42,489 bases of DNA from a virus (IMGVR_UViG_3300005043_000002), one strand, 5' to 3'; shown: positions 7,835-27,870, numbered from the stretch's first letter. Notes: generated from the letters alone by a model not told the origin. Program-made: numbers and translations.

Positions 7835-9193
7835 TTATTGCGTCGGAGTTCCGACAGTGAATTGACCCGTTAGGGGTTCTAATGCTTCGCGTTTTGTGTC
7901 GACCTCTGTGGCCAATAAATGATCATGATTTACATTTTCCGCCCATTCCGTGCGGTCTATTGCGCCTGATTGATAAGACGACATATTACGATTAAATTTA
8001 GAATTCTTAACCTCTTCCTCTTCGACAGCGTTCAACTGCTTGAGAGGATTCCACGAGATCGAGAGATCATCAGGCACAAACCCGAAAAGATGCTGGCAAC
8101 ATATGGCCAATAGGTCAATGACTTGAAACTTGCTCTTTGCGCGTATTTCACCCTCAACCATTGAATTATAATTCTGCAAATCATCTTCGCCAGATGAAAA
8201 ACCAGTGGAGGGAATGCCGAACAGCTTGGACATGGGCATTTTAAGATCAGATGCAACCTGCATGCGTATCTCACTCATGACCTCACCTAAACCAGTAAAT
8301 GACATTTTCTTTTGGTCGTAATCATCGTCGGCGTCCATAGTTATGGCGTTGATATAATTTTTGACTTGGTTCGCCTGTTGTACACGTTGGACAACTTGGG
8401 CCGTCCCATTAGCGGACAACATAGCAGTATTGAAGCCTTTGATCTTGAATACGTCAACTTTGGCCTCGTCGATCAACTCAAACAAGACATTCTGATTTTT
8501 CATGTACTGATTAATAGAACGCACCAAACGCTCAAGTTCTGACATGCCCCAACCGCGCAAACGCTGGCGAATGAAAGCAGGGGCTTCTTTGCCCTTAATT
8601 TTATACACTCGAGTCTTATTGACAATCGTTCCATAATAATTATAGAAATCGCCTTGCTGGTCGTAAGGGTCTGCAACCGCATTCATCGAAGGATTACCGA
8701 CCGCGCCAGAGCCGACCATCTCCCACATATCCAAACCACGAAACGCGAGTTTTCCGCCTTCTTTGATTGACTCGATTTTGAATTCTGTTTGTGGGTTTTG
8801 CCCTGTGATTATGAGAATACCACCGCCGCCATACAGTCTGGCCCACTTGAGCGCATCACGTAGAGCACCAATAACGTTATTGCGCTCAATGTACATTTCG
8901 AGCTTGTCCAGTTCGGCAGGTTCTAATTGATCGGTAACAATCTCAAAGCCCGTACTGAAAGCATCATCGACAGGTTGGTCCACCAAAGTTTGCACAATAC
9001 CATGCTCGACATACATCTGTGAGAGTAGGTTGCGATCATTAGAAACAAGATTATAGCGCAGATTATAATACAGCGAGTCGGTACGGCCAACAAATGCGCC
9101 TGTACCAAAAGGGTTAGTGAATGCACTTGTAAAACTGTTGAGTGAATTAACAACTGGTTCCGACAAGCTCGATGTAGTTTTTAAATTGTTCAT
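7835..9193 (-). CDS. Portal protein (DUF1073 type)
   Basis: 452-aa ORF. The size, position and patterns such as ALKWARLYGGGGILIITG match DUF1073 portals, which pair with DUF2213/DUF2184 capsid modules. Confidence 0.8.
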   Translation of the reverse strand: MNNLKTTSSLSEPVVNSLNSFTSAFTNPFGTGAFVGRTDSLYYNLRYNLVSNDRNLLSQMYVEHGIVQTLVDQPVDDAFSTGFEIVTDQLEPAELDKLEMYIERNNVIGALRDALKWARLYGGGGILIITGQNPQTEFKIESIKEGGKLAFRGLDMWEMVGSGAVGNPSMNAVADPYDQQGDFYNYYGTIVNKTRVYKIKGKEAPAFIRQRLRGWGMSELERLVRSINQYMKNQNVLFELIDEAKVDVFKIKGFNTAMLSANGTAQVVQRVQQANQVKNYINAITMDADDDYDQKKMSFTGLGEVMSEIRMQVASDLKMPMSKLFGIPSTGFSSGEDDLQNYNSMVEGEIRAKSKFQVIDLLAICCQHLFGFVPDDLSISWNPLKQLNAVEEEEVKNSKFNRNMSSYQSGAIDRTEWAENVNHDHLLATEVDTKREALEPLTGQFTVGTPTQ

Positions 9194-9236
9194 TGATCAC
9201 CTAAAACACATAACAATGACAACACTACCACATGAA

Positions 9237-9449
9237 TTACTTAGTATCAAGAATAGAGGGCTGTTTGATTTCTCGAAGAATATCCCGAAGCTCTGCATAT
9301 GCCAAAAGCAACGTACACCATATGAAGGAAAGAAATAGTCTACCTAAATTCATTTCATCCAAAGCGTATGATTGGTAAAAGACTATGAACAGGGCAAACC
9401 CTGCAAATCTTATAAGTTTGGTTTTGGTTATTATTGGGTTGAGGGTCAT
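9237..9449 (-). CDS. Small membrane protein (70 aa, two hydrophobic helices)
   Basis: Hydrophobic segments FAGFALFIVFYQSYAL and LFLSFIWCTLLLAYA. ATGA overlap with the upstream gene. Confidence 0.6.
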   Translation of the reverse strand: MTLNPIITKTKLIRFAGFALFIVFYQSYALDEMNLGRLFLSFIWCTLLLAYAELRDILREIKQPSILDTK

Positions 9450-9805
9450 GATTGGTTTTCTCCTGTTGTTATTTTGTAGATTTCATATGCAGCCTCATGA
9501 AGATAATCATCATGGTAATCACAAGATTCATTAAGGTAATCTTTTATAGCTGTAACATGTTCTAGTTTAGGTTCTTTAGGCACAAGCACGTGTGTGTCTA
9601 GTAGTGCTAGAGCTTCTCTCAATGCAATAATATCAGGGCAAAGGCTTCTGTCATAGAAATGTGTTTCAATCCCCAGAGTTAAAGCTGCCTTTAATTTATC
9701 ATTAGGTGTCATCGGTTTACTCTCATGATTGCGCGCTAATTTAGACTCCTCATTCTTGGATTTATTATAACGGGCTATGCCGCCATCTCTATCGTAGTGA
9801 CTCAT
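9446..9805 (-). CDS. Hypothetical 119-aa protein
   Basis: ORF coupled by ATGA overlaps at both ends. Confidence 0.6.
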   Translation of the reverse strand: MSHYDRDGGIARYNKSKNEESKLARNHESKPMTPNDKLKAALTLGIETHFYDRSLCPDIIALREALALLDTHVLVPKEPKLEHVTAIKDYLNESCDYHDDYLHEAAYEIYKITTGENQS

Positions 9806-9942
9806 GTATCCACCTCAAGCACATATCCCGCCATATCACAGAACAGTTGATCCTCGGTGGGCGACAGGAGTTCATTACGTTCGAGTTTGGTTTTCGCGGT
9901 CAAGTATGCGAATAGTTTCCGTTTGTCTATGATGTTGGTCAT
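9802..9942 (-). CDS. Hypothetical 46-aa protein (below the ORF-track cutoff)
   Basis: Hand translation: MTNIIDKRKLFAYLTAKTKLERNELLSPTEDQLFCDMAGYVLEVDT. The ATG at 9942 shares one nt with the upstream TAA, and the TGA overlaps the next ATG. Confidence 0.5.
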   Translation of the reverse strand: MTNIIDKRKLFAYLTAKTKLERNELLSPTEDQLFCDMAGYVLEVDT

Positions 9943-10106
9943 TATAGTTTTCCTCTGTATGTTAACCTGTCCCAAGATTTGGGGTTCATATATCTATGTC
10001 TACCTGTAATTCCCCACCATAATCTTTCCCAACGGTTCATGCGCATTATTGCCCAACCTATGCGCCAATATCTTTCGTCGCGTATTTTTTCTTCGATGCT
10101 GGTCAT
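9942..10106 (-). CDS. Hypothetical 54-aa W/R-rich protein (below the ORF-track cutoff)
   Basis: Hand translation: MTSIEEKIRDERYWRIGWAIMRMNRWERLWWGITGRHRYMNPKSWDRLTYRGKL. The ATG at 10106 overlaps the upstream TGA. Confidence 0.5.
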   Translation of the reverse strand: MTSIEEKIRDERYWRIGWAIMRMNRWERLWWGITGRHRYMNPKSWDRLTYRGKL

Positions 10107-10291
10107 TTTTTCACCTTCACAATATGATAGCCGTTGGTGGTTAGGTGGCTCAAAAAATGGGCGATAACCACGGCCTCTCTTTTATTAATTTGGCGATAGC
10201 CCAATGCGAATTGTGCCTTGTCGAAATCACCAATAATATTGGGACATTCTTTATCAATGTCTACAATTTCCATTTCTATTATGTTGGTCAT
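10103..10291 (-). CDS. Hypothetical 62-aa protein, C-terminal paralog of 10288..10596
   Basis: Start moved to MTNII (ATGA overlap with the upstream stop). The C-terminus LSHLTTNGYHIVKVKK matches LDYLTANGYQLIKVKK of the neighbour. Confidence 0.6.
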   Translation of the reverse strand: MTNIIEMEIVDIDKECPNIIGDFDKAQFALGYRQINKREAVVIAHFLSHLTTNGYHIVKVKK

Positions 10292-10596
10292 TTTTTCACC
10301 TTTATGAGTTGGTAGCCGTTGGCGGTTAGGTAGTCTAAGGTGGCATTGCACCCACCATCAAAACCAAATTTCATTCCAATATTCCTGCCGACCATCGTGG
10401 TTCTGAGTTCTTCAATATCCACAAGTTCCATGGCCACCATAGGCGATTTAACATCAGGCATAGGGGTATCTGAGCTTACAGGTGGCAACGAGGATTTAAA
10501 CAGTTTAGTATCTATGCATTTTTCACATTTTCCGCAAGCTGTTCCAAGTGCCCAACAGCCACGACATATAACGCCATTGTATTTATTCTGTGTCAT
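10288..10596 (-). CDS. Hypothetical 102-aa protein with N-terminal Cys cluster (CxxC...CxxCxxC)
   Basis: Start moved to MTQNKYNGVICRGCWALGTACGKCEKC. Overlaps the 3' end of the Lar-like gene by 14 nt. Confidence 0.6.
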   Translation of the reverse strand: MTQNKYNGVICRGCWALGTACGKCEKCIDTKLFKSSLPPVSSDTPMPDVKSPMVAMELVDIEELRTTMVGRNIGMKFGFDGGCNATLDYLTANGYQLIKVKK

Positions 10597-10969
10597 TTTT
10601 AAGCCCTTCAAGTTTGAACATACCGCCAATAAATTTTTTCGCGTCTTCAATTTCAGAATCAGCAAGTCTCACGAAACCAAAGAATGAATACGAATCGTGG
10701 CAACCAAGTTCACCCGTTTCAAATGATCGCTTCAATATTTTATATAGATTTTCATCTTCTTTTGATGGTTTACACTCTGGCCGTGTGTTCCAGTCGCCCT
10801 CTGTTGTAGCACCGCAGTTATTACATGCTGGCTTGTGTTGTATATAATCTGCGATATCATCGTCCGCCCAGCTCATCTCTCGCGCTCTAAACTCTGGCTT
10901 AAAACTGGCTACGCCTTCGGGGTCGATATCCGTTGATCCGCAAAACGGACAGGGTTTTAAATTAGTCAT
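10583..10969 (-). CDS. lar: Lar-family restriction-alleviation-like zinc-ribbon protein with C-terminal extension
   Basis: MTNLKPCPFCGS...ACNNCGATTEGDWNTRP matches the Lar-family pattern (CPFCG...C..CG......WNTR). Start moved to the Met preceding this motif. Confidence 0.65.
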   Translation of the reverse strand: MTNLKPCPFCGSTDIDPEGVASFKPEFRAREMSWADDDIADYIQHKPACNNCGATTEGDWNTRPECKPSKEDENLYKILKRSFETGELGCHDSYSFFGFVRLADSEIEDAKKFIGGMFKLEGLKNDTE

Positions 10970-11062
10970 GCTAAATGCCTTATCGTTAAAATTGGTATGA
11001 ACAAGAACCACCAGCGCACCTGTAGAACGGGGCGACCATCTTGCTGTATTTGTTTGGACGTT

Positions 11063-11266
11063 CTAGTTATTATCATTTTTCATATCCTCCGCTTTCTTGA
11101 TTGCTGAGTCTCGCAATAAGTTTAAATTGCCCCACTCGTCAATATGCGCATCACTTTTTTCAGATAAATACTTTGAGTATTCCAAAGCCACAAGCAACTC
11201 ACCCGCTAAGTTCTCAAACCGCAACGCACGAGCGGCGCAGTCTTCAATGTCTTTTTCGGTTGTCAT
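11063..11266 (-). CDS. Hypothetical 67-aa protein
   Basis: Start moved to MTTEKDIEDC, whose ATG overlaps the TGA of the upstream micro-ORF. Confidence 0.55.
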   Translation of the reverse strand: MTTEKDIEDCAARALRFENLAGELLVALEYSKYLSEKSDAHIDEWGNLNLLRDSAIKKAEDMKNDNN

Positions 11267-11367
11267 GATGTGCCCCCTAATATGTAAACATACATGTAAA
11301 TTGTAATGATCACGAAGACCACACATGCTAGAGATGCGAAGACTAAGTTGAATATAAAATTTCTCAT
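11263..11367 (-). CDS. 34-aa single-pass membrane micro-protein (untracked)
   Basis: Hand translation: MRNFIFNLVFASLACVVFVIITIYMYVYILGGTS. GGGAG lies 8 nt upstream. ATGA overlaps at both ends. Confidence 0.5.
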   Translation of the reverse strand: MRNFIFNLVFASLACVVFVIITIYMYVYILGGTS

Positions 11368-11528
11368 TTGGTTTGCTCCCATGTAAAAAATTGTCTTTCG
11401 GCGCAATAACTACCTTTCGCGCCTATTGTCTGATCCATAGTATCGAAGTGGACAGTTTTAACGCACCTGCCCATGACGAACACTGTAGATAATCCCATGA
11501 TTAAACCGAGGGCCATTGCTATTTTCAT
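11364..11528 (-). CDS. 54-aa protein with N-terminal hydrophobic anchor (untracked)
   Basis: Hand translation: MKIAMALGLIMGLSTVFVMGRCVKTVHFDTMDQTIGAKGSYCAERQFFTWEQTK. The ATG overlaps the upstream TGA. Confidence 0.5.
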   Translation of the reverse strand: MKIAMALGLIMGLSTVFVMGRCVKTVHFDTMDQTIGAKGSYCAERQFFTWEQTK

Positions 11529-11851
11529 ATTCCACCCTCCGCATAAGCCTGTTCCATTTCGTAGGATTCACCGTAAACCTTATCGCTTGGCTCGAAACCT
11601 TCGTCATCATAAAACGTTTCACCGTTTTCGTTATGTTGAAGAGACAGGAAACCAGCGCAAATCTTTGAACCTTCATCGACGCGGTTGTCTTCGTCCTCTG
11701 TTTCGCTGTCCAGTGTCTTATGACAATAGAATGTGTTGTACGGGTTCTGAGCTGCATAAGCTAATTCTTCGCCACGCTCTGGACGTAGGAACGGTTTAAC
11801 GTCTGACCGATACGGGCATTGAGCGCAGGGTTTTTTTATGAAATCGCTCAT
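11525..11851 (-). CDS. Cys-rich hypothetical protein (DUF6283-like)
   Basis: N-terminal PCAQCPYRSD...YCHKT...CAGF pattern. 108 aa. Confidence 0.55.
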   Translation of the reverse strand: MSDFIKKPCAQCPYRSDVKPFLRPERGEELAYAAQNPYNTFYCHKTLDSETEDEDNRVDEGSKICAGFLSLQHNENGETFYDDEGFEPSDKVYGESYEMEQAYAEGGI

Positions 11852-12129
11852 GATGCGCCCGTCGCTTTCTTGATTGCGTCACGAATAGGCGTTAAATGAG
11901 CGTCGCCAATATCAGGATTGGCCGCGATTATCTTTAGAGCATATTCCAACGCCTCCAACATATCAGGGGCGGCCGATATCAGGCGCAAAATTCCGTTGTG
12001 TTTATCCATAGATACTTCATCCTGTGATATCACAGTGACCGATAGTTCGAATTCATCGGTATTTAAACTGGTGATTCTCTGGTCTGAGTTCGTTTGCTCA
12101 ATACTGAAAGATATTGGTTTGTTAGTCAT
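11848..12129 (-). CDS. Hypothetical 93-aa protein with the common phage motif AAPDMLEALE
   Basis: LISAAPDMLEALEYAL resembles the widespread A-A-P-E-L-L-E-A-L phage family of unknown function. Confidence 0.6.
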   Translation of the reverse strand: MTNKPISFSIEQTNSDQRITSLNTDEFELSVTVISQDEVSMDKHNGILRLISAAPDMLEALEYALKIIAANPDIGDAHLTPIRDAIKKATGAS

Positions 12130-12275
12130 GATTCTACGCCCTGTTCTTTAAGTTGTCTAACAACTCTTTCGACACTAATGGCTAGATCGTCCATTTGTTC
12201 ATAATGGTGTTTGACAAACAATAAAAATTCGTAAGCCTCAATTTCGGTTAATGTTAATACTATTTTTTTGGGCAT
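12126..12275 (-). CDS. Hypothetical 49-aa protein, first gene of the terL-portal island
   Basis: Start moved to MPKKIVLTL with AGGA 7 nt upstream. The longer tracked form would begin inside the promoter/box. Confidence 0.5.
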   Translation of the reverse strand: MPKKIVLTLTEIEAYEFLLFVKHHYEQMDDLAISVERVVRQLKEQGVES

Positions 12276-12302
12276 TGATTTATCCTTTAAGTTTCTATCA
12301 AC

Positions 12303-12333
12303 ATGAAAACACACCGCTAACAGTCTGTCAACA
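12303..12333 (-). promoter_or_regulatory. Early-type sigma70-like promoter with the bipartite box, inside the late arm just after terL
   Basis: The minus strand reads TGTTGACA-gac-TGTTAGCG (12333-12315), then a -10-like TTTCAT (12308-12303) 17 nt after TTGACA. Confidence 0.5.
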
Positions 12334-12339
12334 ACTTAA

Positions 12340-13629
12340 TTATAAAACATCGAAAATAGATACGTCTGCGGTGATGTAATCGGCCAGCGCATAACGAGTT
12401 GCGTCAATATAATGATTCCAGTTATCAATAATCACAGGCAGAATTTCTTGTGTGTTTTTATCGACCTTATACGAGTACTTGGTTAATTCTTCAATCGTCT
12501 TAACACATCTCGGATGCACAAATATGTTATTAAACGACCTTAAATATTCAACTCCGTCTTCAACGCTGCCTTTCCACTTTGGCGCGCCCTCTACATTAAA
12601 TCCTTGCTTGCTCACATGGGATATCGTTTCGGGCCTTGAACAGTCACCGTATATTTTCCAACGCTTGGACTCTGGCACTGATCGGAACATCGTACCTATA
12701 TCATCCAACTCAACACCAACGCCGCCCGCCTCATAATCTATATATAAATTCTTCTGTCCATTTTCGAGCATGATGTACATGCGTACCAGAGTCGTAGGAT
12801 CGTTCGCGAATCCCCAATCTGCACCGAAGAAAAAACGGGTTTGGTATAATTCAGTGAGGGCAGGCGTCTCGAAATCCAGTTCCTTCCATTTTCCATGGAA
12901 AACAATTTGCTCTGCACGACCGACGGCCTCACCCATGTATTCATGATCGTATTTCATGCGGTCGGATTTCTTCAACGCCTCCGCATCTGCTATAAATTTC
13001 TGTCCTAACCATTCGGGCGGAACGTCTAAATATGTGGAGTGGTGGACGATCCTGTCGCCGTATGCTTTGTTCTCGCATTCTTTGTTGACCCATGCGGCCG
13101 GATCATTCGGCGGGTTGTATGTGATAAACTCCACAAACTTATCACCACCACGCAAAACGGATTGTTGGACGTTTCTTATTTCGTCCATACCATAGAATTC
13201 GGCGGCCTCTTCAAACCACAGGAATTTGAAATAACCTTGCTTAACATTTATCGACTTGAGCTTGAGTGGATTATCTAGCCCCTTCATTATGATTTTTTGG
13301 CCAGTGGGTAGGTATGTGATTTCAGGCGGTGATTTCGTATGAGAGAAAAACGCATCTACCTTAAGCATACTAATCGCCCATAAAAGCGTTTCAAGAACCG
13401 ATGTCCTGATCGTCTCCCCAACCTTACGAACCACAAGCGCGTTTGCGTCGGGATCTTCTATCATCCCTAATATTATCTGTATGGCGGCGAAAGACGATTT
13501 AGTCGATCCACGTCCGCCCTTGAGCCAGATTGAAACCGTGGCCTTTAATCTTATTCTGCGATGGATAGGATAGAAGACGGGGGCGATAACTGTTTTAAGA
13601 GATACCTCAGTCATCGTCTGGAATATCAT
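12340..13629 (-). CDS. terL: Terminase large subunit
   Basis: 429-aa ORF with Walker A-like KGGRGSTKS, a nuclease-half pattern, and a position after terS. An alternative coupled start lies at 13614 (ATGA with the terS stop). Confidence 0.85.
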   Translation of the reverse strand: MIFQTMTEVSLKTVIAPVFYPIHRRIRLKATVSIWLKGGRGSTKSSFAAIQIILGMIEDPDANALVVRKVGETIRTSVLETLLWAISMLKVDAFFSHTKSPPEITYLPTGQKIIMKGLDNPLKLKSINVKQGYFKFLWFEEAAEFYGMDEIRNVQQSVLRGGDKFVEFITYNPPNDPAAWVNKECENKAYGDRIVHHSTYLDVPPEWLGQKFIADAEALKKSDRMKYDHEYMGEAVGRAEQIVFHGKWKELDFETPALTELYQTRFFFGADWGFANDPTTLVRMYIMLENGQKNLYIDYEAGGVGVELDDIGTMFRSVPESKRWKIYGDCSRPETISHVSKQGFNVEGAPKWKGSVEDGVEYLRSFNNIFVHPRCVKTIEELTKYSYKVDKNTQEILPVIIDNWNHYIDATRYALADYITADVSIFDVL

Positions 13630-14155
13630 CCTTGAGAACTGTTGGGGTTATATCCTTAAACTCTAATTTATCGACGAACATACCACGATCTTTACCAAGC
13701 ATATCAAGCGCGGCCTTTTTATCCGATACCTTGATTTTCATTACTTCGGCGAAACCTACGTTTTCATTTCCCACCATACATATATCAACGCCAGATATTG
13801 CGCCGGCGGTATCATCATCAAGTTTGGAAATATGGATAGGCTTGCCATCATCATCGAATAATTTACGCGCATCATAGAAGGCAATCTTTGCAAGTTCCGC
13901 AGTGATACGCTCGGCGGTAATGTTAAGTTTGTTCTGTACTTTAAGCCTCTCATTGCGCAAATAAGCCGCTATATGTGGTTTGTTGCGGTTTTCATAACCA
14001 ATAGACGAGGCCGCGTTTTCAGAGTATCCCGCGTCGATTGCAGCCTGTGTAGCGTTATCATCTACAAGCACATTGTCTGCCCATAATCTAGATTTGGCCG
14101 TCCACCCTTCGGATGCTGGTCTATCTTTATCATCGCTTGGTTTGGGTTCCGTCAT
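13607..14155 (-). CDS. terS: Terminase small subunit (Terminase_2 / P27 type)
   Basis: ATQAAIDAGYSENAASSIGYENRNKPHIAAYL matches the helix-turn-helix core of Terminase_2 small subunits. It is the first gene of the late arm. Confidence 0.8.
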   Translation of the reverse strand: MTEPKPSDDKDRPASEGWTAKSRLWADNVLVDDNATQAAIDAGYSENAASSIGYENRNKPHIAAYLRNERLKVQNKLNITAERITAELAKIAFYDARKLFDDDGKPIHISKLDDDTAGAISGVDICMVGNENVGFAEVMKIKVSDKKAALDMLGKDRGMFVDKLEFKDITPTVLKDDIPDDD

Positions 14156-14171
14156 TTGAATAACCTCCGTG

Positions 14172-14190
14172 TTGTTATCACAATGTTAGC
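14172..14190 (-). promoter_or_regulatory. Bipartite box in the late-operon leader (no TTGACA -35)
   Basis: The plus strand reads TGTTATCA-caa-TGTTAGCA and the minus strand reads TGCTAACA-ttg-TGATAACA. It lies 17-35 nt upstream of the terS ATG. Confidence 0.5.
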
Positions 14191-14270
14191 ACACTTCTAT
14201 ATGCGTTGGGAATATCAAAAACACCTAAAATACCCCCTATTATGTAAATGGGTTTGGGTAATAAAATTAC

Positions 14271-14320
14271 GGGCCATTTGGTGTCCAGTGTTCCTGTTGT
14301 TATATCAATGACTTAGCCTA
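14271..14320. repeat. Direct repeat copy 1 (core GGCCATTTGGTGTCCAGTGTT)
   Basis: About 50 bp, roughly 80 percent identical by eye to 14337..14386 (66-bp period). The core TTTGGTGTCCA recurs at 14571..14581. Confidence 0.8.
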
Positions 14321-14336
14321 AATATATTATGTTAAA

Positions 14337-14386
14337 TGGCCAGATGGTGTCCAGTGTTTATTTAATTAGATCAACGACTTAACCCT
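14337..14386. repeat. Direct repeat copy 2 (core GGCCAGATGGTGTCCAGTGTT)
   Basis: See 14271..14320. Confidence 0.8.
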
Positions 14387-14436
14387 ATTTCCCCCTCTTC
14401 TCTCTATATTTTCTCTACTTAAAAGAGTATATAGAG

Positions 14437-14469
14437 TTAAGGGGGGTCGATGCTATAATTGACCCCCTT
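14437..14469. other. G/C-run hairpin (TAAGGGGGGTC - 12-nt loop - GACCCCCTTA)
   Basis: Inverted repeat read directly. It is preceded by a second dyad, CTCTATAT...ATATAGAG (about 14399-14437). Confidence 0.7.
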
Positions 14470-14720
14470 AGTAAAATATAGAAATTAGTACAGCGTTTTT
14501 TTCAAACCCGAAAACAGGGGGTAAAAACCGCAGAGTTGAGCCGAATGAGTGGGTTTGGGTTTTTGGGGTAATTTGGTGTCCATTTACATAAGTAGGGTCA
14601 AATGTGTGATATGTAAAACAAAAACAGGTAAAAACAGGGTGTGAAAAGTGCTGTTTTAGGGTAAAAAGGGTCAAAAAGGGGTGAGCAAAACGCTGTTTCA
14701 GGTATGCTACGCAAGATTGT

Positions 14721-14751
14721 TGCTTGACACAGTGCTTACAGTGTGCAAGAG
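14721..14751 (+). promoter_or_regulatory. Early promoter P1 with bipartite box
   Basis: gcTTGACA-cag-TGCTTACA. The -10 region is weak (AAGAGT at 17 nt). A-tracts phased at about 10-11 bp lie upstream (14618-14690). It is 36 nt upstream of the first early ATG. Confidence 0.5.
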
Positions 14752-14786
14752 TACAGATATTGAAACGCTAACAGAGAGCAAACAGA

Positions 14787-15164
14787 ATGACCAAAAAGTT
14801 AATTTTAGAAAATACAAGTTTCCTTAAAGAGTGCGGGCAAGGTTTCGAATTTCCCGTCGATGAAAATAATATTCTCACGATTAATAAGTGTGCGACGATT
14901 GGTATAGGTGATTATAACAGGGGTCATTTTGATTTATGGTCATTTGATATGACAAATGAAGGCGACCGTATTAACATCGGTATCGCACAGATTAAAATCG
15001 ACATGTCTACGCTAAAAACAAACATCGATATTCATGGCGAATTAATCAAAAATCTTGAGCGTGAATTAAAAGACGAAATGGCCGACCATGAGGTTAAGAT
15101 CAACCACCTAAAATCTCAGATTAGTAAATTGATGGCGATTGAATATCAGGGGGATGAGGGATAA
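14787..15164 (+). CDS. Hypothetical early protein (125 aa, C-terminal coiled coil)
   Basis: First ORF after P1. Confidence 0.65.
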   Translation: MTKKLILENTSFLKECGQGFEFPVDENNILTINKCATIGIGDYNRGHFDLWSFDMTNEGDRINIGIAQIKIDMSTLKTNIDIHGELIKNLERELKDEMADHEVKINHLKSQISKLMAIEYQGDEG

Positions 15165-15298
15165 TGAGCACAGAATTATTAACCACGATTATGTGTGTAT
15201 TATTTGTTTTGTTGGTCGGATATTTCGGTATTAAAATGAAAGCACAAGAATACCAAGCGGCTCAAATTATCATTAACGGATGTAAGGAATTAAAATAA
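15164..15298 (+). CDS. 44-aa single-pass membrane micro-protein (untracked)
   Basis: Hand translation: MSTELLTTIMCVLFVLLVGYFGIKMKAQEYQAAQIIINGCKELK. TAATG overlaps at both ends. Confidence 0.5.
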   Translation: MSTELLTTIMCVLFVLLVGYFGIKMKAQEYQAAQIIINGCKELK

Positions 15299-15963
15299 TG
15301 CACATGCACTTAGAAATTATCATGCCACCGACTGACGATGTTGAGTCGTCAATTAAACAAATACTTGCGCCGTTCGATGAGAATGGAAAAGACGACTGTT
15401 GTGATCCGGACCCCCATGCTTTTTGGGATTTTTATGTTATCGGCGGTAGATATGCTGGTGAGAAAAAGAGCCAGAGTTTTGATAAAGAAAGTCTTACTGC
15501 TTTTTATAAAGACCTTAACAAAAATAAAATTACTGTAAGTAGCTTGCAGTGTGGCAAACAAAAACTTGAGCCGTCCAGCCAGATACCTACCGTGGATAAA
15601 TTATGGGTTAAGCATTTCCCAGATGGTGGCAAAGTCTGCCCGATATTTGACCACTATAACGACCAATACGAACATAGCGAGGGTTATCCTGATATTATGA
15701 CGCTGAAAGATACACCTGAAAATCTTGAGGTGCATCACGTGATTATCGCCACGCCTGATTGGGAAGATAAAATCGCGGCTCATTATATGGTTGAGAACAG
15801 CGTTTATAACGGCGTTAATTATCTTGACACTAAATGGGATGGTACAATTAAGGGCGCGTTAGAAATGAGCGCAGAGAAAAATAAACGTTACACAGAAGAG
15901 GCGAAAGAAAAATACACGCCTAAAGATGATTGGCTCGTAGTAACGGTTGATTATCATTCTTAA
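15298..15963 (+). CDS. Hypothetical early protein (221 aa) with FWDFYVIGGRY motif
   Basis: ORF with AAGGA 10 nt upstream. No function recognised. Confidence 0.7.
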   Translation: MHMHLEIIMPPTDDVESSIKQILAPFDENGKDDCCDPDPHAFWDFYVIGGRYAGEKKSQSFDKESLTAFYKDLNKNKITVSSLQCGKQKLEPSSQIPTVDKLWVKHFPDGGKVCPIFDHYNDQYEHSEGYPDIMTLKDTPENLEVHHVIIATPDWEDKIAAHYMVENSVYNGVNYLDTKWDGTIKGALEMSAEKNKRYTEEAKEKYTPKDDWLVVTVDYHS

Positions 15964-15992
15964 GTTATCTGGAAATATAAGGAATTAAAATA

Positions 15993-16439
15993 ATGGAAAA
16001 TGAACTCAGAATTGAACGGTTAACGATGCTCGCCGATATGTTGGATAGACATGACGAGCTGTTTAAAGTGGTGTTTGATATAAGGCAGTGGGGCAGTGAA
16101 GCTATCCACTATGAAACTAAACAACACGAGCCAGAGTTATGCGGTAGTGCCGCCTGTGCGTTAGGTAGCGCAGCCATGTACCCACCATTTATGAAGCAGG
16201 GTTTGCGGTTGAGATATGATAGCACAGGATTTATGGTCAGGAAGGATTCTAACGTATTAAAAGAAGACGTCACGCCGTTTTATGATGGGCATGCTGATTT
16301 TATGGCAGGTTCTTGGTTTTTCGGCATAACTGGTGGTGAATCATGTGAGTTATTCGATGGCGATGAATACGGATATACTAAAGTAACCGCAGCCATGGTG
16401 GCCGAGCGGGTAAGAAAATTAATTAAGGTGTATGTATAA
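15993..16439 (+). CDS. Hypothetical early protein (148 aa) with CGSAACALGSAA motif
   Basis: ORF preceded by the same TAAGGAATTAAAATAATG initiation region as 15298. Confidence 0.7.
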   Translation: MENELRIERLTMLADMLDRHDELFKVVFDIRQWGSEAIHYETKQHEPELCGSAACALGSAAMYPPFMKQGLRLRYDSTGFMVRKDSNVLKEDVTPFYDGHADFMAGSWFFGITGGESCELFDGDEYGYTKVTAAMVAERVRKLIKVYV

Positions 16440-16750
16440 TGGAATTTAACGAAAACGAGCTAGACGATCTAGCGTTTCAAGGCGCGATAAATGCGGCGAT
16501 GAAAGTCCTTGATAGGGTTGCTCTCTGTTCGGATGATAACAGAATGGAAGCGCATTATACACGTAAAGGTGTTGAAATGATTATAACCGTAGAGGAGAAG
16601 AAACCGGAAGAGACGGAGAAGCCCGATCACTTAAATTTGATTAGATATCAAGGTATCGAAGAGAGTTTGGTTGAGGCGTATGGGACAGGTGACCCCGACG
16701 CGGTTTGGGATATTGTGGAACGTTGTTTTATAGATAGGGAGTCTAAGTAA
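16439..16750 (+). CDS. Hypothetical acidic early protein (103 aa)
   Basis: TAATG coupling at both ends. D/E-rich. Confidence 0.65.
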   Translation: MEFNENELDDLAFQGAINAAMKVLDRVALCSDDNRMEAHYTRKGVEMIITVEEKKPEETEKPDHLNLIRYQGIEESLVEAYGTGDPDAVWDIVERCFIDRESK

Positions 16751-17319
16751 TGACACAGAATAAAATAAACGTTGGCGATAAGGTTTTGATCGAGGTCGAG
16801 GTCACAGGTGTTTCTGATAATGAAATTCAATTAAAATCTAGGGGTTGGGAGGATTGGACATGTAAGTCAAAGATCAAAAAGGTAATTACTGCGCCGTTTG
16901 ATTGGGATATAGTAGAGCCTAGAATGGCGTTTAAAGATATCGAAGGTAATGTGTTCTGGTATGTTTCCAAGGGGTGGGGCGACGATAGATGCGCCGTTTT
17001 CTCCACTAATTATAGAGAGCCTATGGAAAGGCATTTAAGGTTTATGATCAAAGAGAACCTAACGCGCGCTGTAAATAAAGACCCAGAAACACCGGATAAA
17101 ACCCACACCGCCGACGAGGTACATAAAATTCTGTATAAGGAGTTTTTATACCAGTTCAAAGGTAAAAAATTAACAGAAGTAACATATGCAGAAATGAAAG
17201 CATGGTGGTTAAATAAACTGCTAGATTATTTTCCGTATGAGAAAACCACACCGAGTATATCTATCGCTATAAGCGACGAGGGCGGTATTATTGTTAATTT
17301 TGAAGGTGAGGGCGCGTAA
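16750..17319 (+). CDS. Hypothetical early protein (189 aa)
   Basis: Coupled ORF. Confidence 0.65.
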   Translation: MTQNKINVGDKVLIEVEVTGVSDNEIQLKSRGWEDWTCKSKIKKVITAPFDWDIVEPRMAFKDIEGNVFWYVSKGWGDDRCAVFSTNYREPMERHLRFMIKENLTRAVNKDPETPDKTHTADEVHKILYKEFLYQFKGKKLTEVTYAEMKAWWLNKLLDYFPYEKTTPSISIAISDEGGIIVNFEGEGA

Positions 17320-17660
17320 TGGGTAATGTTGATATTGAAGAATTATGCGATGTTATACGCCAAATTCTTATTGGCCACAACTTGCACAATATGATTAATG
17401 AGGGTGATGAGTGCGGATATTCTCTGGCCGATGCTTTAACCATGGATGGTCAGACAGTCGATAAGGGGTATGAAGAAATACACCTGATTGTTGACGCCTT
17501 ATTTCACCCAATAAAAGACTACCTAAACCAATGCGGATTAATTGGTCAGTCGATGCCAATAGAAAGGATAGAGGATAAAGAGTTAATGTATCTGCATAAA
17601 GACAATAAAATATACGAATGTAGAGTGATCGGCGAAGTTAAACCAGAGTTTAGGAGATGA
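17319..17660 (+). CDS. Hypothetical acidic early protein (113 aa)
   Basis: Coupled ORF. D/E-rich. Confidence 0.65.
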   Translation: MGNVDIEELCDVIRQILIGHNLHNMINEGDECGYSLADALTMDGQTVDKGYEEIHLIVDALFHPIKDYLNQCGLIGQSMPIERIEDKELMYLHKDNKIYECRVIGEVKPEFRR

Positions 17661-17666
17661 AAATAA

Positions 17667-18209
17667 ATGACAATACTTGAGCAAATGCAAAAAATAAAAT
17701 TCGGCAAACAGTCAAACGAGACAATTCTCGGTATATTTCTATCTAAGAATTGGGATAATTTCGTATCATTAATACACCGGAATAAAACCCTTGAGCGTCA
17801 GAACACTGATTTGCAGGCGGCGAATACTAAGCATCGTTTGGAGAACAGGGGATTAAAAAAAGGCCTGAAAGATTGCCTCGAATGTATTCTAATGCCGGAT
17901 AATGGCGTCAGTGACGTGATTTGGTATGGTGATTTTGAGAGTTTAGCCGAACATATTGCGGGCGTGCTTGATGAGGATATTGATTTCGAAGAGGTGGCCG
18001 CGTCTGTCCAGAATAGAAAAATTCAGTATCGTTGCCCTAAAACCGATGATTTTGAGGTGTTGGCGCTGAAAGAAGAAAATCATCGTTTGCGCGATGCTTT
18101 GGAATTGATGTTAAAATCACCAGAAAACGAAGACGGAACACCTTGGATTAATGGTGGCATGTCTACGGTTCAAGAGATTTGCGAAAACGCCCTAAAAGGT
18201 GACACGTGA
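17667..18209 (+). CDS. Hypothetical early protein (180 aa)
   Basis: AGGAG lies upstream of the ATG. Confidence 0.65.
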   Translation: MTILEQMQKIKFGKQSNETILGIFLSKNWDNFVSLIHRNKTLERQNTDLQAANTKHRLENRGLKKGLKDCLECILMPDNGVSDVIWYGDFESLAEHIAGVLDEDIDFEEVAASVQNRKIQYRCPKTDDFEVLALKEENHRLRDALELMLKSPENEDGTPWINGGMSTVQEICENALKGDT

Positions 18210-18337
18210 TGTTTGAAGTTGCGATGGTTATTTGTATTATTATTTTAGGTCTTGGATATTCTCTCGGATATATCCACGGTTATTTTAAAGCATATGGTAT
18301 TTTTACGGCAGAAGATGAAACGGAGAACGAATTATGA
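18209..18337 (+). CDS. 42-aa single-pass membrane micro-protein (untracked)
   Basis: Hand translation: MFEVAMVICIIILGLGYSLGYIHGYFKAYGIFTAEDETENEL. The ATG overlaps the upstream TGA. Confidence 0.5.
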   Translation: MFEVAMVICIIILGLGYSLGYIHGYFKAYGIFTAEDETENEL

Positions 18338-18462
18338 TCAGATGGTTAAATCTTATCCCCCTCCTAATGCTGGCGAGCTGTACTATAGTAATGTGCGGAG
18401 AGGATAACACTCGCGCACAGTCTTATGAAAAATGTAATGGTGTGCATGAAGAAATCAAATAA
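18334..18462 (+). CDS. 42-aa putative lipoprotein (untracked)
   Basis: Hand translation: MIRWLNLIPLLMLASCTIVMCGEDNTRAQSYEKCNGVHEEIK. Lipobox L-A-S-C. ATGA overlap with the upstream gene. Confidence 0.5.
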   Translation: MIRWLNLIPLLMLASCTIVMCGEDNTRAQSYEKCNGVHEEIK

Positions 18463-18464
18463 CC

Positions 18465-18495
18465 TGTTGACACTGTGTTATCAACCTGCTATCAC
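18465..18495 (+). promoter_or_regulatory. Early promoter P2 with bipartite box
   Basis: TGTTGACA-ctg-TGTTATCA, with -10-like TATCAC 17 nt after TTGACA. Confidence 0.5.
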
Positions 18496-18523
18496 TTATA
18501 TTAACAAACAGGGAGTTACCAAT

Positions 18524-18655
18524 ATGACAAAAATTCAACAAAATCTTATCCGTTGCCAAATTAAGCAAACTAAAGCCTATGAAGAATTTACAGTGGGTAT
18601 CACGTTTGTAGCAGCGATGCTTTCAGCTCTGGCTGTATTCGTAGTGGTTATGTAA
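18524..18655 (+). CDS. 43-aa tail-anchored membrane micro-protein
   Basis: Start moved to MTKIQQNL (GGGAG upstream), because P2 lies inside the longer tracked ORF. C-terminal segment ITFVAAMLSALAVFVVVM. Confidence 0.5.
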   Translation: MTKIQQNLIRCQIKQTKAYEEFTVGITFVAAMLSALAVFVVVM

Positions 18656-19065
18656 TGAGCGGTTTTCGTCAAATAGGTGATATCACCGAAGAACTTTTAA
18701 CAGGAATAAATCCAATGAAACAAATTAAAATACCAGATCACGTATATGCTCGTATGGAGTCTCTATCCACTTTTCACGGCATGGGAATCCCCAATATTTC
18801 CGAGGCTCTTTTAGTTTACGCATGTAAGAAATTCGAGAAAGACGGTATTACATTGCCGCCCATGGGAAACACTGATTTTAACCGCGAAGATTTAGTCAAC
18901 GAGTCTATTGAGATTTCAAAACTCGGCACTCTAAAATATGTGGAATGGCTGGCAAAGTTATCACCTGCCGAAGAAAACGCGCTCAAATATTGTATAAAAG
19001 CGCATAAAAAAGTCGCAGAAGCAGCCACCAAAAAAACGGCTCTGGAAAACATGGGGATCGCATGA
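18655..19065 (+). CDS. Hypothetical protein (136 aa)
   Basis: Coupled ORF. Confidence 0.65.
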   Translation: MSGFRQIGDITEELLTGINPMKQIKIPDHVYARMESLSTFHGMGIPNISEALLVYACKKFEKDGITLPPMGNTDFNREDLVNESIEISKLGTLKYVEWLAKLSPAEENALKYCIKAHKKVAEAATKKTALENMGIA

Positions 19066-19274
19066 CCAAAAAACTCCGTGATCTTAAAGACAAAGAATGT
19101 CGTTGGCCTCTAGGTGATCCGAATGATAAGGATTTCGGATTTTGTGGCAAGAAAATATCTCACCGAAGTTATTGCGCCGAGCATACAATACAGAGCCAGC
19201 GTAGGGTTATTAAAACACCCGAAGAGATTGACGATGCGAATCGCTCAGAAAATACCACCGGAAACAGATGGTAA
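19062..19274 (+). CDS. GcrA C-terminal-domain-like protein (70 aa)
   Basis: KECRWPLGDPNDKDFGFCGKKISHRSYCAEH matches the conserved C.WP.GDP....F.FCG......YC..H block at the C-terminus of GcrA cell-cycle regulators. No N-terminal DNA-binding half is present. Confidence 0.6.
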   Translation: MTKKLRDLKDKECRWPLGDPNDKDFGFCGKKISHRSYCAEHTIQSQRRVIKTPEEIDDANRSENTTGNRW

Positions 19275-19421
19275 TTAAAGATAGGAATGCGTCCTGTATT
19301 CTAGGGCTACGGGGGGATGCCCAGTAAACCAAGATCAATGATTTGTGAGATGAGGGCGTAGTCCTACTATTTGGCATCCTTAATTGATCAACCCCCACCA
19401 TTTTTAACGAAAGAAAATCCA
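19275..19421 (+). promoter_or_regulatory. Structured leader A (conserved 3' block shared with 26274..26322)
   Basis: GGATGCC (19315-21) pairs with GGCATCC (19373-79), and the G-run 19311-16 pairs with the C-run 19392-96. The last 41 nt resemble leader B up to the ATG. Confidence 0.45.
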
Positions 19422-19850
19422 ATGACACACAATAAAATCTTAGAATTACTAGAAGACCCTGCCAGCGATGATAAAGAAATTGATTTAGCATTTTTCAGGT
19501 TCAGGACTAAAGCAGACGTGCAAAACATAGAAGTTGATTACGATGGTAGTTTATATTGTACGGACGCAAAAGGCGAGGAGGTTGATGTTGGTGGATGTTT
19601 CTACGTCAAAGATTTAATTGTCACCACAAGCCTAGACGCTATCAAAGCTGTACAGGATGAGCATTTGGAGGGGTGGTATCAGAGCGGGTTTGTTTATGAA
19701 GATATAACCGAATGCACTTTAAGGAAAATACCCAAGGGCAAAAAGTCAGAAATAGATTTTTTCTATTCAACAGCCCCAACAGAACCAAGAGCAAGATTAC
19801 ACGCTGTAATTCAGGCTCTAGCGCATATGAGGGGGGTAACCGATGAATAA
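19422..19850 (+). CDS. Hypothetical protein, phage ABA-sandwich-like C-terminus
   Basis: Start moved to MTHNKILELL, directly after the conserved leader. STAPTEPRARLHAVIQALAHM resembles the end of Phage_ABA_S domain proteins. Confidence 0.55.
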   Translation: MTHNKILELLEDPASDDKEIDLAFFRFRTKADVQNIEVDYDGSLYCTDAKGEEVDVGGCFYVKDLIVTTSLDAIKAVQDEHLEGWYQSGFVYEDITECTLRKIPKGKKSEIDFFYSTAPTEPRARLHAVIQALAHMRGVTDE

Positions 19851-20403
19851 AGCGTATTTAAACTCCGGCGGCACAAAAGAATCAGACGAGGTTTTAACTC
19901 CCAGATATGGTGTATGGCCGATAATCAAACATCTAAAAAAACGAGGTTATAAAAATATATGGTGTCCGTTTGATAAAGAGGATTCGGCGTTTGTTAGGGT
20001 TTTAAAAGAATATGGTTTTATCGTGATTGATACCCATATAGAAAATGGAAATGATTTTTTCGATCTCGATATGAATTTATTACGTGCTTCATGTGATTGC
20101 ATAGTCAGTAATCCGCCGTTTTCAATCAAAGATAAAATCTTAAAACGCCTCTACGAAATAGGCTTGCCCTTCGCCATCATCCTACCCCAAAACTCTTTAC
20201 AATCAATCAAGCGTGTTGATATGTTTAAGAAACATGGTCTTGAGTATCTAGGATTCGACCGTAGAATAAATTATTACACGCGTGGCGATTTAACAGCGTG
20301 GAAACCTGCGAATCATTTCGCCAGTGGGTATTTCTGCCGTAATGTCTTGCCGTCTCCGTTTGTCCTTGAAAAACTAATGCCTTTTCAAGAACCCTATAAA
20401 TAA
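19843..20403 (+). CDS. Putative N6-adenine (NPPF) DNA methyltransferase-like protein, EcoRI-methylase-like small family
   Basis: Catalytic-type motif IVSNPPFS. The position of motif I reads IWCPFDKEDSAF, without the usual G-x-G. Confidence 0.5.
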   Translation: MNKAYLNSGGTKESDEVLTPRYGVWPIIKHLKKRGYKNIWCPFDKEDSAFVRVLKEYGFIVIDTHIENGNDFFDLDMNLLRASCDCIVSNPPFSIKDKILKRLYEIGLPFAIILPQNSLQSIKRVDMFKKHGLEYLGFDRRINYYTRGDLTAWKPANHFASGYFCRNVLPSPFVLEKLMPFQEPYK

Positions 20404-20404
20404 T

Positions 20405-20434: not shown

Positions 20435-20473
20435 ATCCATAGCTCATTATCACCAATAGGAAACCCACTCACC

Positions 20474-23307: not shown

Positions 23308-23310
23308 AAA

Positions 23311-27869: not shown

Positions 27870-27870
27870 A

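What the first reader, a model, noticed from the sequence alone, without database searches (positions are those of the whole stretch)
9237..12333. A 3-kb island of 13 tiny coupled genes splits terL from the portal gene and has its own early-type box promoter
In most tailed phages the portal gene follows terL directly. Here the terL stop (12340) and the portal start (9193) are separated by 13 ORFs of 34-128 aa. Five of them are below the 60-aa track cutoff and were found by hand. Nearly all are chained by ATGA/TAATG stop-start overlaps.

Immediately after terL sits a copy of the early promoter/box (12333-12303, minus strand). The island may therefore be expressed with, or regulated like, the early genes despite lying in the late arm.

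The contents look like host-takeover or anti-defence cargo:
- a Lar-type restriction-alleviation zinc ribbon (10583-10969)
- two further Cys-cluster proteins
- three small membrane proteins
- tandem paralogs
Basis: partly seen in the sequence, partly recalled or inferred. Interest (0 to 1): 0.65.

Follow-up and report, generated by a model that had tools for sequence, protein, structure and literature searches.

The report
Accessory small-gene island between terL and portal
An uncultured marine phage carries a 3-kb block of 13-14 tiny genes of unknown function between its DNA-packaging gene and its portal gene, preceded by a copy of the phage's own repeated promoter box; this is a large but otherwise ordinary example of the variable accessory-gene regions known in phages.

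Summary
terL (12340-13629, -) and portal (7835-9193, -) are separated by 3.1 kb of small minus-strand ORFs. I count 14 (34-128 aa), joined by 10 ATGA, 1 TAATG and 2 14-nt overlaps.

Twelve have codon usage like the phage's core genes. The 34-aa and 36-aa ORFs rest mainly on their exact coupling.

The sequence after terL is a real extra copy of the box TGTTGACA-N3-TGYTARCR. That box marks five promoters of the replication arm. It is the best non-training hit of a matrix built from those five. It lies 59 nt before the first island ATG; the other sites lie 59-70 nt before theirs. Its -10 (TGtTTTCAT) is poor.

No terminator separates the island from terL or from portal, so late read-through is expected either way.

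Relatives (terL 53-72% identical) have terL and portal adjacent, or carry unrelated small cargo there. None has any island gene.

Island composition equals the genome's. Only three genes match families:
- DUF6283
- a P22-Y8K6/phrog_1273 family
- a sub-threshold Lar-like zinc ribbon

Two are ORFans. Homologues of two island genes sit in early small-gene strings of other phages.

Verdict: a lineage-specific accessory island, probably regulated like the early genes. Anti-defence function is unproven. It is a new member of a known kind.

The parts
12340..13629 (-). terL, upstream boundary of the island
   Evidence: Terminase_3 130 bits and Terminase_3C 66 bits. Relatives are 53-72% identical.
12315..12333 (-). 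Copy of the repeated promoter/operator box, TGTTGACAGACTGTTAGCG. The -35 TTGACA is at 12331-12326. The candidate -10 is TGtTTTCAT, with the hexamer at 12308-12303. The inferred transcription start is near 12296.
   Evidence: Exact TTGTTGACA. Best non-training matrix hit, 17.9 bits. Lies 59 nt before the ATG at 12275, against 59-70 nt at the other box sites. The -10 is poor and was not listed by the promoter scan.
12126..12275 (-). Island gene 1, 49 aa, helical, ORFan
   Evidence: AAGGA ribosome-binding site; 0.31 bits/codon. Only itself found among 1.84 billion representatives. AlphaFold2 gives a single long helix.
11848..12129 (-). Island gene 2, 93 aa, phrog_1273 / PF27050 Phage_P22_Y8K6 family, function unknown
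   Evidence: phrog_1273 E = 6.6e-11. Precomputed PF27050 on the identical contig.
11525..11851 (-). Island gene 3, 108 aa, DUF6283, four Cys, acidic
   Evidence: PF19800 33.9 bits, above the cut-off of 27. phrog_5443. 60% identical homologue in Paraglaciecola Antarctic GD virus 1.
11364..11528 (-). Island gene 4, 54 aa, N-terminal hydrophobic segment (signal or membrane anchor)
   Evidence: Kyte-Doolittle 19-residue maximum 1.93 at residue 1; 0.30 bits/codon.
11263..11367 (-). Island gene 5, 34 aa, single transmembrane segment
   Evidence: Kyte-Doolittle maximum 2.73. ATGA junctions at both ends. Codon score 0.07. Not called by the public gene caller.
11063..11266 (-). Island gene 6, 67 aa, acidic, no family
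   Evidence: 0.36 bits/codon. No Pfam or PHROG hit.
10966..11076 (-).
   Evidence: GGAGG ribosome-binding site and an ATGA junction to gene 8. Codon score is -0.03 and it was not called publicly.
10583..10969 (-). Island gene 8, 128 aa. N-terminal four-Cys zinc ribbon of a Lar-like subfamily (residues 1-63) plus a helical C-terminal part.
   Evidence: Lar_restr_allev 16.8 bits, below 28.6. TIGR03655 22.1 bits, below 39.6. 14 of 16 subfamily members hit Lar at E <= 0.1. Invariant C7, C10, C49, C52, W60, R63. AlphaFold2 pLDDT about 90 over residues 1-60.
10288..10596 (-). Island gene 9, 102 aa. N-terminal CxxC-x7-CxxCxxC cluster plus a C-terminal domain paralogous to gene 10.
10103..10291 (-). 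Island gene 10, 62 aa, paralogue of the C-terminal half of gene 9
   Evidence: z = 9.9, 0 of 2000 shuffles. 59-nt repeat at 81% identity.
9942..10106 (-). Island gene 11, 54 aa, basic, rich in Trp and Arg, no family
9802..9942 (-). Island gene 12, 46 aa, no family
9446..9805 (-). Island gene 13, 119 aa, ORFan
   Evidence: Only itself found in the 5.8-billion-cluster search. No phage tblastn hit. 0.32 bits/codon.
9237..9449 (-). Island gene 14, 70 aa, two hydrophobic segments
   Evidence: Kyte-Doolittle maximum 1.61. Called by the public gene caller.
7835..9193 (-). Portal gene, downstream boundary. It follows a 43-nt gap with no terminator.
   Evidence: Phage_portal_3 214 bits. Fold z-score 0.13 and no terminator-like site.

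Best explanation
The segment is a lineage-specific accessory-gene island of 13-14 small, translationally coupled genes. It sits at the terL-portal junction of a roughly 42.4-kb phage with no integrase-sized ORF in its replication arm. The phage comes from subseafloor marine fluid.

**Shown**
- The genes are real, with phage-typical codon usage.
- The island is absent from all relatives found.
- It is preceded by one more copy of the phage's repeated box. The box is a consensus -35 TTGACA embedded in two 8-bp half-sites, and it otherwise marks the promoters of the replication arm.
- There is no terminator on either side of the island.

**Inferred mechanism**
- Host sigma-70 RNA polymerase starts near 12296 at this box.
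- That start is under the same phage regulator as the replication-arm operons, so the island proteins would be made early.
- The island is transcribed again late, by read-through from terS-terL.
- The weak -10 keeps this internal promoter modest, which limits premature transcription of portal and head genes.

**Inferred function**
The products are zinc-ribbon or Cys-rich proteins, small helical proteins and small membrane proteins. These types sit in the early small-gene strings of other phages. They most likely act on the host or its defences. No individual function is established.
For: - **ORFs, junctions and coding signal:**
- **Flanking genes:**
- **Insertion relative to kin:**
  - Bdellovibrio phage phi1422 has terL and portal overlapping.
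  - L003 and L007-L012 (terL 59-72% identical, portal about 53%) have gaps of 60-80 nt.
  - No island protein hits any of 43 related loci.
- **The junction is a recurrent cargo site:**
  - L013 has a reverse-strand 148-aa ORF.
  - L018 has a 64-aa ORF that looks like a helix-turn-helix protein by eye.
  - L020 has 80-aa and 198-aa ORFs.
  - SPP1 has genes 3, 4 and 5 between terL and portal.
- **Box:**. The box-to-ATG distance is 59 nt, against 59-70 nt elsewhere.
- **The + arm is a replication/recombination arm:** Toprim-VapE primase, helicase, PD-(D/E)XK nuclease and RecT.
- **Contexts of homologues:** relatives of the Lar-like gene lie next to YqaJ, Rad52, Prim-Pol and DNA polymerase A genes. 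The DUF6283 homologue lies in a small-gene string between ribonucleotide reductase and dCMP deaminase.
- **Lysis genes lie elsewhere:** endolysin at 30296-30751. The island's membrane proteins are therefore not the lysis cassette.
Against: - The -10 element TTTCAT lacks the -11 A, and the consensus promoter scan did not report the site.
- The second half-site of the box is in the opposite orientation to the early boxes.
- With no terminator at 9193-9237, an early transcript would run into portal and head genes.
- A box-like site also sits in the terS leader, so the box is not strictly an 'early' mark.
- Island composition equals the genome's: GC 0.413 against 0.417, and the tetranucleotide distance is at the median. 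There is no sign of recent foreign origin.
- No gene matches a known anti-defence or defence family.
- The only other copies found are 100% identical to the window, so close relatives give no information.
Confidence: 0.5

Rival explanations
1. The island is expressed late only. It is an accessory insertion, but it is transcribed solely as part of the terS-terL-portal late message. The box after terL is then a non-functional remnant, or only a protein-binding site such as a roadblock or operator.
For: - Poor -10, not listed by the promoter scan.
- No terminator or stable structure between terL and gene 1.
- A box-like site without a -35 also lies in the terS leader, showing the motif can occur as a pure operator.
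- The second half-site is inverted relative to the early boxes.
Against: - The -35 is a perfect TTGACA, followed by a 17-nt spacer and a TGn motif.
- The site lies 59 nt before the first ATG, like the other box promoters.
- The first replication-arm box (14721) also has a weak -10, AAGAGT with TGc.
Confidence: 0.3
2. The box is an internal promoter or operator whose main role is to drive or gate portal and head-gene expression. The small genes were simply inserted downstream of it.
For: There is no terminator between the island and portal, so anything starting at the box transcribes portal and the head genes.
Against: - Relatives without the island show no repeated promoter-like motif in their terL-portal gap.
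- No other box lies in the 27-kb late arm.
Confidence: 0.1
3. The small ORFs serve morphogenesis or packaging, for example as packaging accessory factors, head-completion proteins or injected proteins. They would then be late genes in their natural place.
For: They lie inside the packaging/head module and are co-oriented and coupled with it. SPP1 also keeps genes 3-5 at this position.
Against: - The genes are absent from all relatives that share terL and portal.
- There are no PHROG structural hits.
- Homologues of two of the genes sit in early regions elsewhere.
Confidence: 0.07
4. Most of the small ORFs are chance open frames in a non-coding spacer.
For: The 36-aa ORF has a codon score of -0.03. 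The 34- and 70-aa ORFs score low.
Against: - Twelve ORFs score like core genes, and the named frame is the best of six in 13 of the 14 ORFs.
- The ORFs tile the 3 kb with no gaps.
- Three match protein families.
- There are no Rfam or tRNA hits.
Confidence: 0.02

Closest known systems
Morons and regions of genomic plasticity in phage late operons (lambdoid phages; Pseudomonas Mu-like phages; PMC4378225)
   Same: Extra genes sit between two structural genes that are adjacent in related phages. They are variable between relatives and presumably non-essential. A candidate own promoter is present.
   Different: - A classical moron is usually a single gene with its own promoter and terminator and a deviating composition (PMC4378225).
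- Here there are 13-14 coupled genes.
- No terminator was found.
- Composition is identical to the genome's.
Anti-CRISPR (acr-aca) operons of Pseudomonas Mu-like phages. They lie in the head-gene region and have a strong early sigma-70 promoter carrying inverted-repeat operators for the Aca repressor (PMC9410906, PMC4378225).
   Same: A small-gene cassette lies inside the morphogenesis region. It has a sigma-70-like promoter with repeat half-sites overlapping the -35 and spacer. There is no insulation from the downstream structural genes, so repression would be needed.
   Different: - No helix-turn-helix aca-like gene is in the island, and there is no Pfam DNA-binding hit.
- The operator is the phage's genome-wide box rather than a private one.
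- No known Acr homologue was found.
- The -10 is weak rather than strong.
Bacillus phage SPP1 genes 3, 4 and 5, between terL (gene 2) and portal (gene 6)
   Same: SPP1 has the same junction in a phage whose terL is 35.7% identical to this one. Three small genes of unknown function lie between terL and portal.
   Different: SPP1 has about 0.76 kb and three genes; here there are 3.1 kb and 13-14 genes. There is no sequence similarity.
Lar / RalR of the E. coli Rac prophage (Pfam PF14354, TIGR03655, NF007260)
   Same: The N-terminal roughly 63 residues of the 128-aa protein carry CPFCG...CxxCGA...WNTR, the motif pattern I recall for Lar-like zinc ribbons. The weak hits are consistently to Lar models.
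   Different: - Scores are below both curated cut-offs.
- A roughly 30-residue insertion lies between the two zinc knuckles.
- An extra helical C-terminal part is present.
- Restriction alleviation is untested. From memory, Rac Lar has also been described as the DNase toxin RalR; NCBIfam NF007260 names it so.

Membership tests
Moron (classical definition, PMC4378225) | Inserted between two genes that are adjacent in related phages | tested here: met
   terL and portal are adjacent in phi1422, L003 and L007-L012.
Moron (classical definition, PMC4378225) | Own promoter | tested here: inconclusive
   A box with a perfect -35 lies at the right distance from the ATG. The -10, TTTCAT, is poor and was not listed by the scan.
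Moron (classical definition, PMC4378225) | Own terminator | tested here: not met
   No terminator-like site on the - strand at 9193-9237, and fold z-score 0.13.
Moron (classical definition, PMC4378225) | Nucleotide composition different from the neighbouring genes | tested here: not met
   GC 0.413 against 0.417; tetranucleotide distance at the median of all 3.1-kb windows; codon usage like core genes.
acr-aca anti-CRISPR operon | DNA-binding aca gene (usually helix-turn-helix) within the operon | tested here: not met
   No DNA-binding family hit for any island protein in Pfam, PHROGs or NCBIfam. Gene 1 looked ribbon-helix-helix-like by eye, but AlphaFold2 gave one long helix and it has no homologues.
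acr-aca anti-CRISPR operon | Sigma-70-type promoter with repeat operators overlapping the core elements | tested here: inconclusive
   Half-sites TGTTGACA and TGTTAGCG overlap the -35 and the spacer. Promoter activity is unknown.
acr-aca anti-CRISPR operon | At least one protein that inhibits CRISPR-Cas | not testable with these tools
   No Acr library was available. No Pfam or PHROG Acr hit.
Lar family (PF14354 / TIGR03655) | Score at or above the curated family cut-off | tested here: not met
   PF14354 16.8 bits against 28.6. TIGR03655 22.1 bits against 39.6.
Lar family (PF14354 / TIGR03655) | Four-Cys zinc ribbon with CPFCG ... CxxCGA ... WNxR motifs (the family motif pattern is recalled from memory) | tested here: met
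   C7, C10, C49, C52, W60 and R63 are invariant in 16 subfamily members. 14 of 16 members hit the Lar model at E <= 0.1, best 1.9e-4.
Lar family (PF14354 / TIGR03655) | Alleviates type I restriction | not testable with these tools
   Needs a plating assay on hosts carrying restriction-modification systems.
DUF6283 (PF19800) | Score at or above the curated cut-off | tested here: met
   33.9 bits against 27 for the 108-aa protein.

The most novel reading that the evidence does not exclude
The island is an early-expressed counter-defence or host-takeover cassette embedded in the late packaging/head operon. It would be switched by the phage's genome-wide operator box rather than by a private Aca-type repressor. 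It would also hold several new inhibitor families, including the ORFans of 49 and 119 aa and the insertion-bearing Lar-like zinc ribbon.
Probability: 0.2. Interest if true: 0.6.

Novelty: new member of a known kind. Interest (0 to 1): 0.3.

Why it matters
If the box is an active, regulated promoter, this phage is a natural example of early-type accessory genes nested in a late operon without insulation. The same design problem is solved by Aca repressors at anti-CRISPR loci. Here it would be solved by the phage's general regulator.

The island would also be a compact source of about a dozen uncharacterised small proteins from a deep-subseafloor phage to screen for anti-defence activity.

As it stands, it mainly adds a large example to the known class of variable accessory regions. 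It also shows that the terL-portal junction is a recurrent cargo site in this phage group.

Tried and rejected
- **Concatenated queries.** I joined the 14 proteins (1022 aa) into one query.
  - The word-indexed protein search returned nothing, not even the query's own proteins.
  - The IMG/VR scan chose peptides that spanned ORF junctions.
  - tblastn against phages gave only two hits.
- **Megablast** of 9000-13700 against INPHARED found no match.
- **terL look-up.** An exact look-up of the 429-aa terL failed, because the public call starts 5 codons later.
- **Wider scans.**
  - The metagenome scan with portal gave only two short contigs at 47-53% identity.
  - The genome scan with terL gave only relatives of about 40% identity in Clostridia MAGs, so it gave no host clue.
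- **Other copies.** The public contigs L044 and L045 are 100% identical to the window, so there is no variation to analyse.
- **Flanking repeats.** The two island boundaries share no significant similarity (177 of 1000 shuffles score as well). I rejected the idea of flanking repeats.
- **Ancestral promoter.** Relatives show no repeated motif in the terL-portal gap.
- **Gene 1 as a ribbon-helix-helix regulator.**
  - It has no similarity to the 58-aa candidate regulator.
  - It has no PDB sequence hit.
  - AlphaFold2 gave one long helix.
  - It has no homologues.
- **Fold search** of the Lar-like model found nothing at E <= 0.001 in BFVD or PDB.
- **Other libraries.**
  - PADLOC gave no hits.
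  - Rfam and tRNA scans gave none.
  - PDB sequence searches of the 93-, 108- and 119-aa proteins gave nothing.

Full report
**What the window is**

The first and last 99 nt of the window are identical. It is therefore a circularly closed assembly of a phage genome of about 42.4 kb.

- The same sequence is on record as IMG 3300029950 contig Ga0315562_100098, and in a Logan assembly of SRR2297239.
- Both are 100% identical to the window over 20.4 kb and 8.2 kb.
- IMG 3300029950 is a reassembled metagenome of cold subseafloor crustal fluid from North Pond.
- INPHARED holds no close relative.

**Genome layout**

The + strand arm (14787-29167) encodes replication and recombination functions:
- a Toprim/VapE primase-helicase
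- a ResIII/DEAD helicase
- a PD-(D/E)XK nuclease
- RecT
- a GcrA-like protein

The - strand arm runs in this order:
- terS (13607-14155)
- terL (12340-13629)
- the island
- portal (7835-9193)
- head genes
- across the assembly junction, neck, tail and tail-fibre genes
- an endolysin at 30296-30751

**The observation**

The 3146 nt between the terL stop and the portal start are tiled by minus-strand ORFs. I find 14. Their sizes are 49, 93, 108, 54, 34, 67, 36, 128, 102, 62, 54, 46, 119 and 70 aa.

- The public gene caller called 12 and missed the 34- and 36-aa ORFs.
- The junctions are 10 ATGA, 1 TAATG and 2 overlaps of 14 nt.

I built a codon log-odds model from 27 long genes of this phage.
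- Twelve ORFs score 0.13-0.36 bits/codon. Core genes score 0.17-0.45, and the off-frame median is -0.72.
- In 13 of the 14 ORFs the named frame is the best of six; the 36-aa ORF is the exception.
- The 34- and 70-aa hydrophobic ORFs score 0.07 and 0.04.
- The 36-aa ORF scores -0.03. It rests only on its GGAGG ribosome-binding site and exact ATGA coupling.

Rfam and tRNA scans found nothing. The ORF chain is therefore real.

**The box**

The motif TGTTGACA-N3-TGYTARCR, which contains a consensus -35 TTGACA, occurs on the + strand at:
- 14722 (a looser copy)
- 18465
- 20405
- 25910
- 28954

A related TTGTTGACA promoter lies on the - strand at 25960.

- The four + strand sites from 18465 to 28954 have a -10-like hexamer 16-17 nt downstream: TATCAC, TAAAAT, TATCAC and TATCTT.
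- The 14722 site has the weaker AAGAGT, preceded by TGc.
- All of these sites, including 25960(-), have a start codon 59-70 nt downstream.

The sequence just after the terL stop, TTGTTGACAGACTGTTAGCGG (12334-12314, -), is a further copy.
- A matrix built only from the five + strand sites ranks it as the best other hit in the genome, at 17.9 bits.
- Its first ATG (12275) is 59 nt away.

Three cautions apply:
- Its -10 is TTTCAT. It is preceded by TGt but lacks the -11 A, and the consensus scan did not list the site.
- Its second half-site is in the opposite orientation. CTGTTAGC is the reverse complement of the GCTAACAG found in the early boxes.
- A box-like site without a -35 lies 18 nt upstream of the terS start (14191-14173). 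The motif is therefore an operator that is not confined to early promoters.

**Insulation**

No terminator-like hairpin or unusually stable structure lies between terL and gene 1. None lies between gene 14 and portal.

Late transcripts from terS should therefore read through the island. Anything starting at the box should read on into portal and the head genes.

**Comparative evidence**

In the closest isolate by portal (43% identity), Bdellovibrio phage phi1422, terL and portal overlap.

IMG/VR relatives fall into two groups.

Tight junctions:
- L003 (terL 59% identical) and L007-L009, L011 and L012 (terL 70-72%, portal about 53%) have terL-portal gaps of 60-80 nt.

Other arrangements at the same junction:
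- L013 has 442 nt holding a reverse-strand 148-aa ORF.
- L018 has 282 nt holding a 64-aa ORF that looks like a helix-turn-helix protein by eye.
- L020 has 1.1 kb holding 80-aa and 198-aa ORFs.
- L015 and L019 have gaps of 300-425 nt.
- L010 has more than 4.5 kb of opposite-strand small genes after terL.

SPP1, whose terL is 35.7% identical, has genes 3, 4 and 5 between terL and portal.

No island protein matches anything in the 43 related loci. The junction is thus a recurrent site for unrelated cargo, and this island is the largest example seen.

The island's base composition equals the genome's. GC is 0.413 against 0.417, and the tetranucleotide distance is at the median. The two island boundaries share no significant repeat.

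**Contents**

Only three genes match families.
- The 108-aa protein is DUF6283 (33.9 bits, above the cut-off of 27) and phrog_5443. A 60% identical homologue lies in Paraglaciecola Antarctic GD virus 1. It sits in a string of small genes between ribonucleotide reductase and dCMP deaminase.
- The 93-aa protein matches phrog_1273. On the identical contig it carries a precomputed PF27050 Phage_P22_Y8K6. Both are of unknown function.
- The 128-aa protein has an N-terminal four-Cys zinc ribbon.

Details for the 128-aa protein:
- Its subfamily of 16 proteins keeps C7, C10, C49, C52, W60 and R63 invariant.
- 14 of the 16 hit Pfam Lar_restr_allev at E <= 0.1, best 1.9e-4.
- The window protein scores 16.8 bits against a cut-off of 28.6. 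For TIGR03655 it scores 22.1 against 39.6.
- An AlphaFold2 model is confident over residues 1-60. It found only generic zinc ribbons, with nothing at E <= 0.001 in BFVD or PDB.
- Three homologues in long contigs lie in early or replication small-gene strings. Their neighbours are YqaJ; Rad52, Prim-Pol and DNA polymerase A; and a small-gene cluster beside the lysis module.

Other contents:
- The 102-aa protein has a CxxC-x7-CxxCxxC cluster. Its C-terminal half is paralogous to the 62-aa protein (z = 9.9).
- The 54-, 34- and 70-aa proteins have hydrophobic segments.
- The 49- and 119-aa proteins are ORFans in searches of 1.84 billion representatives and 5.8 billion clusters.
- There are no PADLOC hits.

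**Interpretation**

The best reading is a lineage-specific accessory island whose genes resemble, in type and in the context of their homologues, the early small-gene sets of other phages. It has been placed under a copy of the phage's general promoter/operator box inside the late arm.

Early expression from that box is plausible, but it is an inference. Late read-through is nearly certain given the lack of terminators. The main rival is therefore late-only expression with a non-functional or purely operator-type box.

The anti-defence reading has no direct support. The Lar call is a sub-threshold fold-level resemblance. NCBIfam also names the Rac Lar protein as the DNase toxin RalR.

**Comparison with known systems**

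The island works like a moron or a region of genomic plasticity in a late operon. It also resembles the acr-aca cassettes of Mu-like Pseudomonas phages, which have an early sigma-70 promoter with repeat operators in the head-gene region (PMC4378225, PMC9410906).

It fails two tests of the classical moron definition. It has no terminator and no deviating composition.

It also lacks the aca-type regulator gene that accompanies acr genes in acr-aca operons.

It is best filed as a large multi-gene accessory island. That makes it a new member of a known kind rather than a new kind of element.

Noticed in passing
window 14156-14786: This 630-nt divergent intergenic region lies between terS and the first + strand gene. 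It holds two 47-nt direct repeats (14272-14318 and 14338-14384, 79% identical), each containing TGGTGTCCAGTGTT. A third TTGGTGTCCA lies near 14573, and there are GGG/TTT-rich repeats. Relative L007 has similar TTTTGGGTTATTTTGGG repeats upstream of its terS. These could be a late promoter or activator sites, a pac site, or an origin.
   Followed up: partly
window 14173-14191: A box-like site, TGCTAACATTGTGATAACA on the - strand, lies 18 nt upstream of the terS start codon. It has no -35 TTGACA and scores 13.8 bits with the early-box matrix. This suggests the same regulator also touches the late leader.
   Followed up: partly
window 25720-25960: Two box promoters face away from each other, at 25909(+) and 25960(-). 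The minus-strand one precedes a 58-aa ORF (25720-25896). By eye the ORF has a strand-helix-helix (ribbon-helix-helix-like) pattern, but it has no Pfam or PHROG hit. It is a candidate box-binding regulator.
   Followed up: partly
window 19062-19274: A 70-aa protein carries a precomputed GcrA (PF07750) hit. To my knowledge GcrA is a cell-cycle transcription regulator of Alphaproteobacteria, so this is a possible hint to host or regulation.
   Followed up: no
window 1-99 and 42391-42489: The 99-nt ends are identical. This is an assembly overlap indicating a circular or terminally redundant genome of about 42,390 bp.
   Followed up: yes
L010 9275-13801: In this relative (terL 67% identical), terL is followed by more than 4.5 kb of opposite-strand small genes, with no portal downstream. 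A portal fragment lies upstream at 824-1114. This is either a rearranged genome or a mis-assembly.
   Followed up: no
window 9926-10331: Three island genes start with nearly the same 18 nt, AATGACCAACATCATAGA and variants. A 59-nt junction module is repeated at 10088-10146 and 10273-10331. It comprises the last codons of one gene, a GTGAAAAA ribosome-binding site and the first codons of the next. It could be a substrate for gene duplication or shuffling within the island.
   Followed up: partly
window 9237-12275 compared with the rest of the genome: ATGA (4-nt) stop-start overlaps make up 10 of the 13 island junctions. Only about 3 of roughly 29 junctions in the flanking 17 kb of called genes are ATGA; there, 1-nt overlaps dominate. 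I counted the flanking junctions by hand from the gene table.
   Followed up: partly
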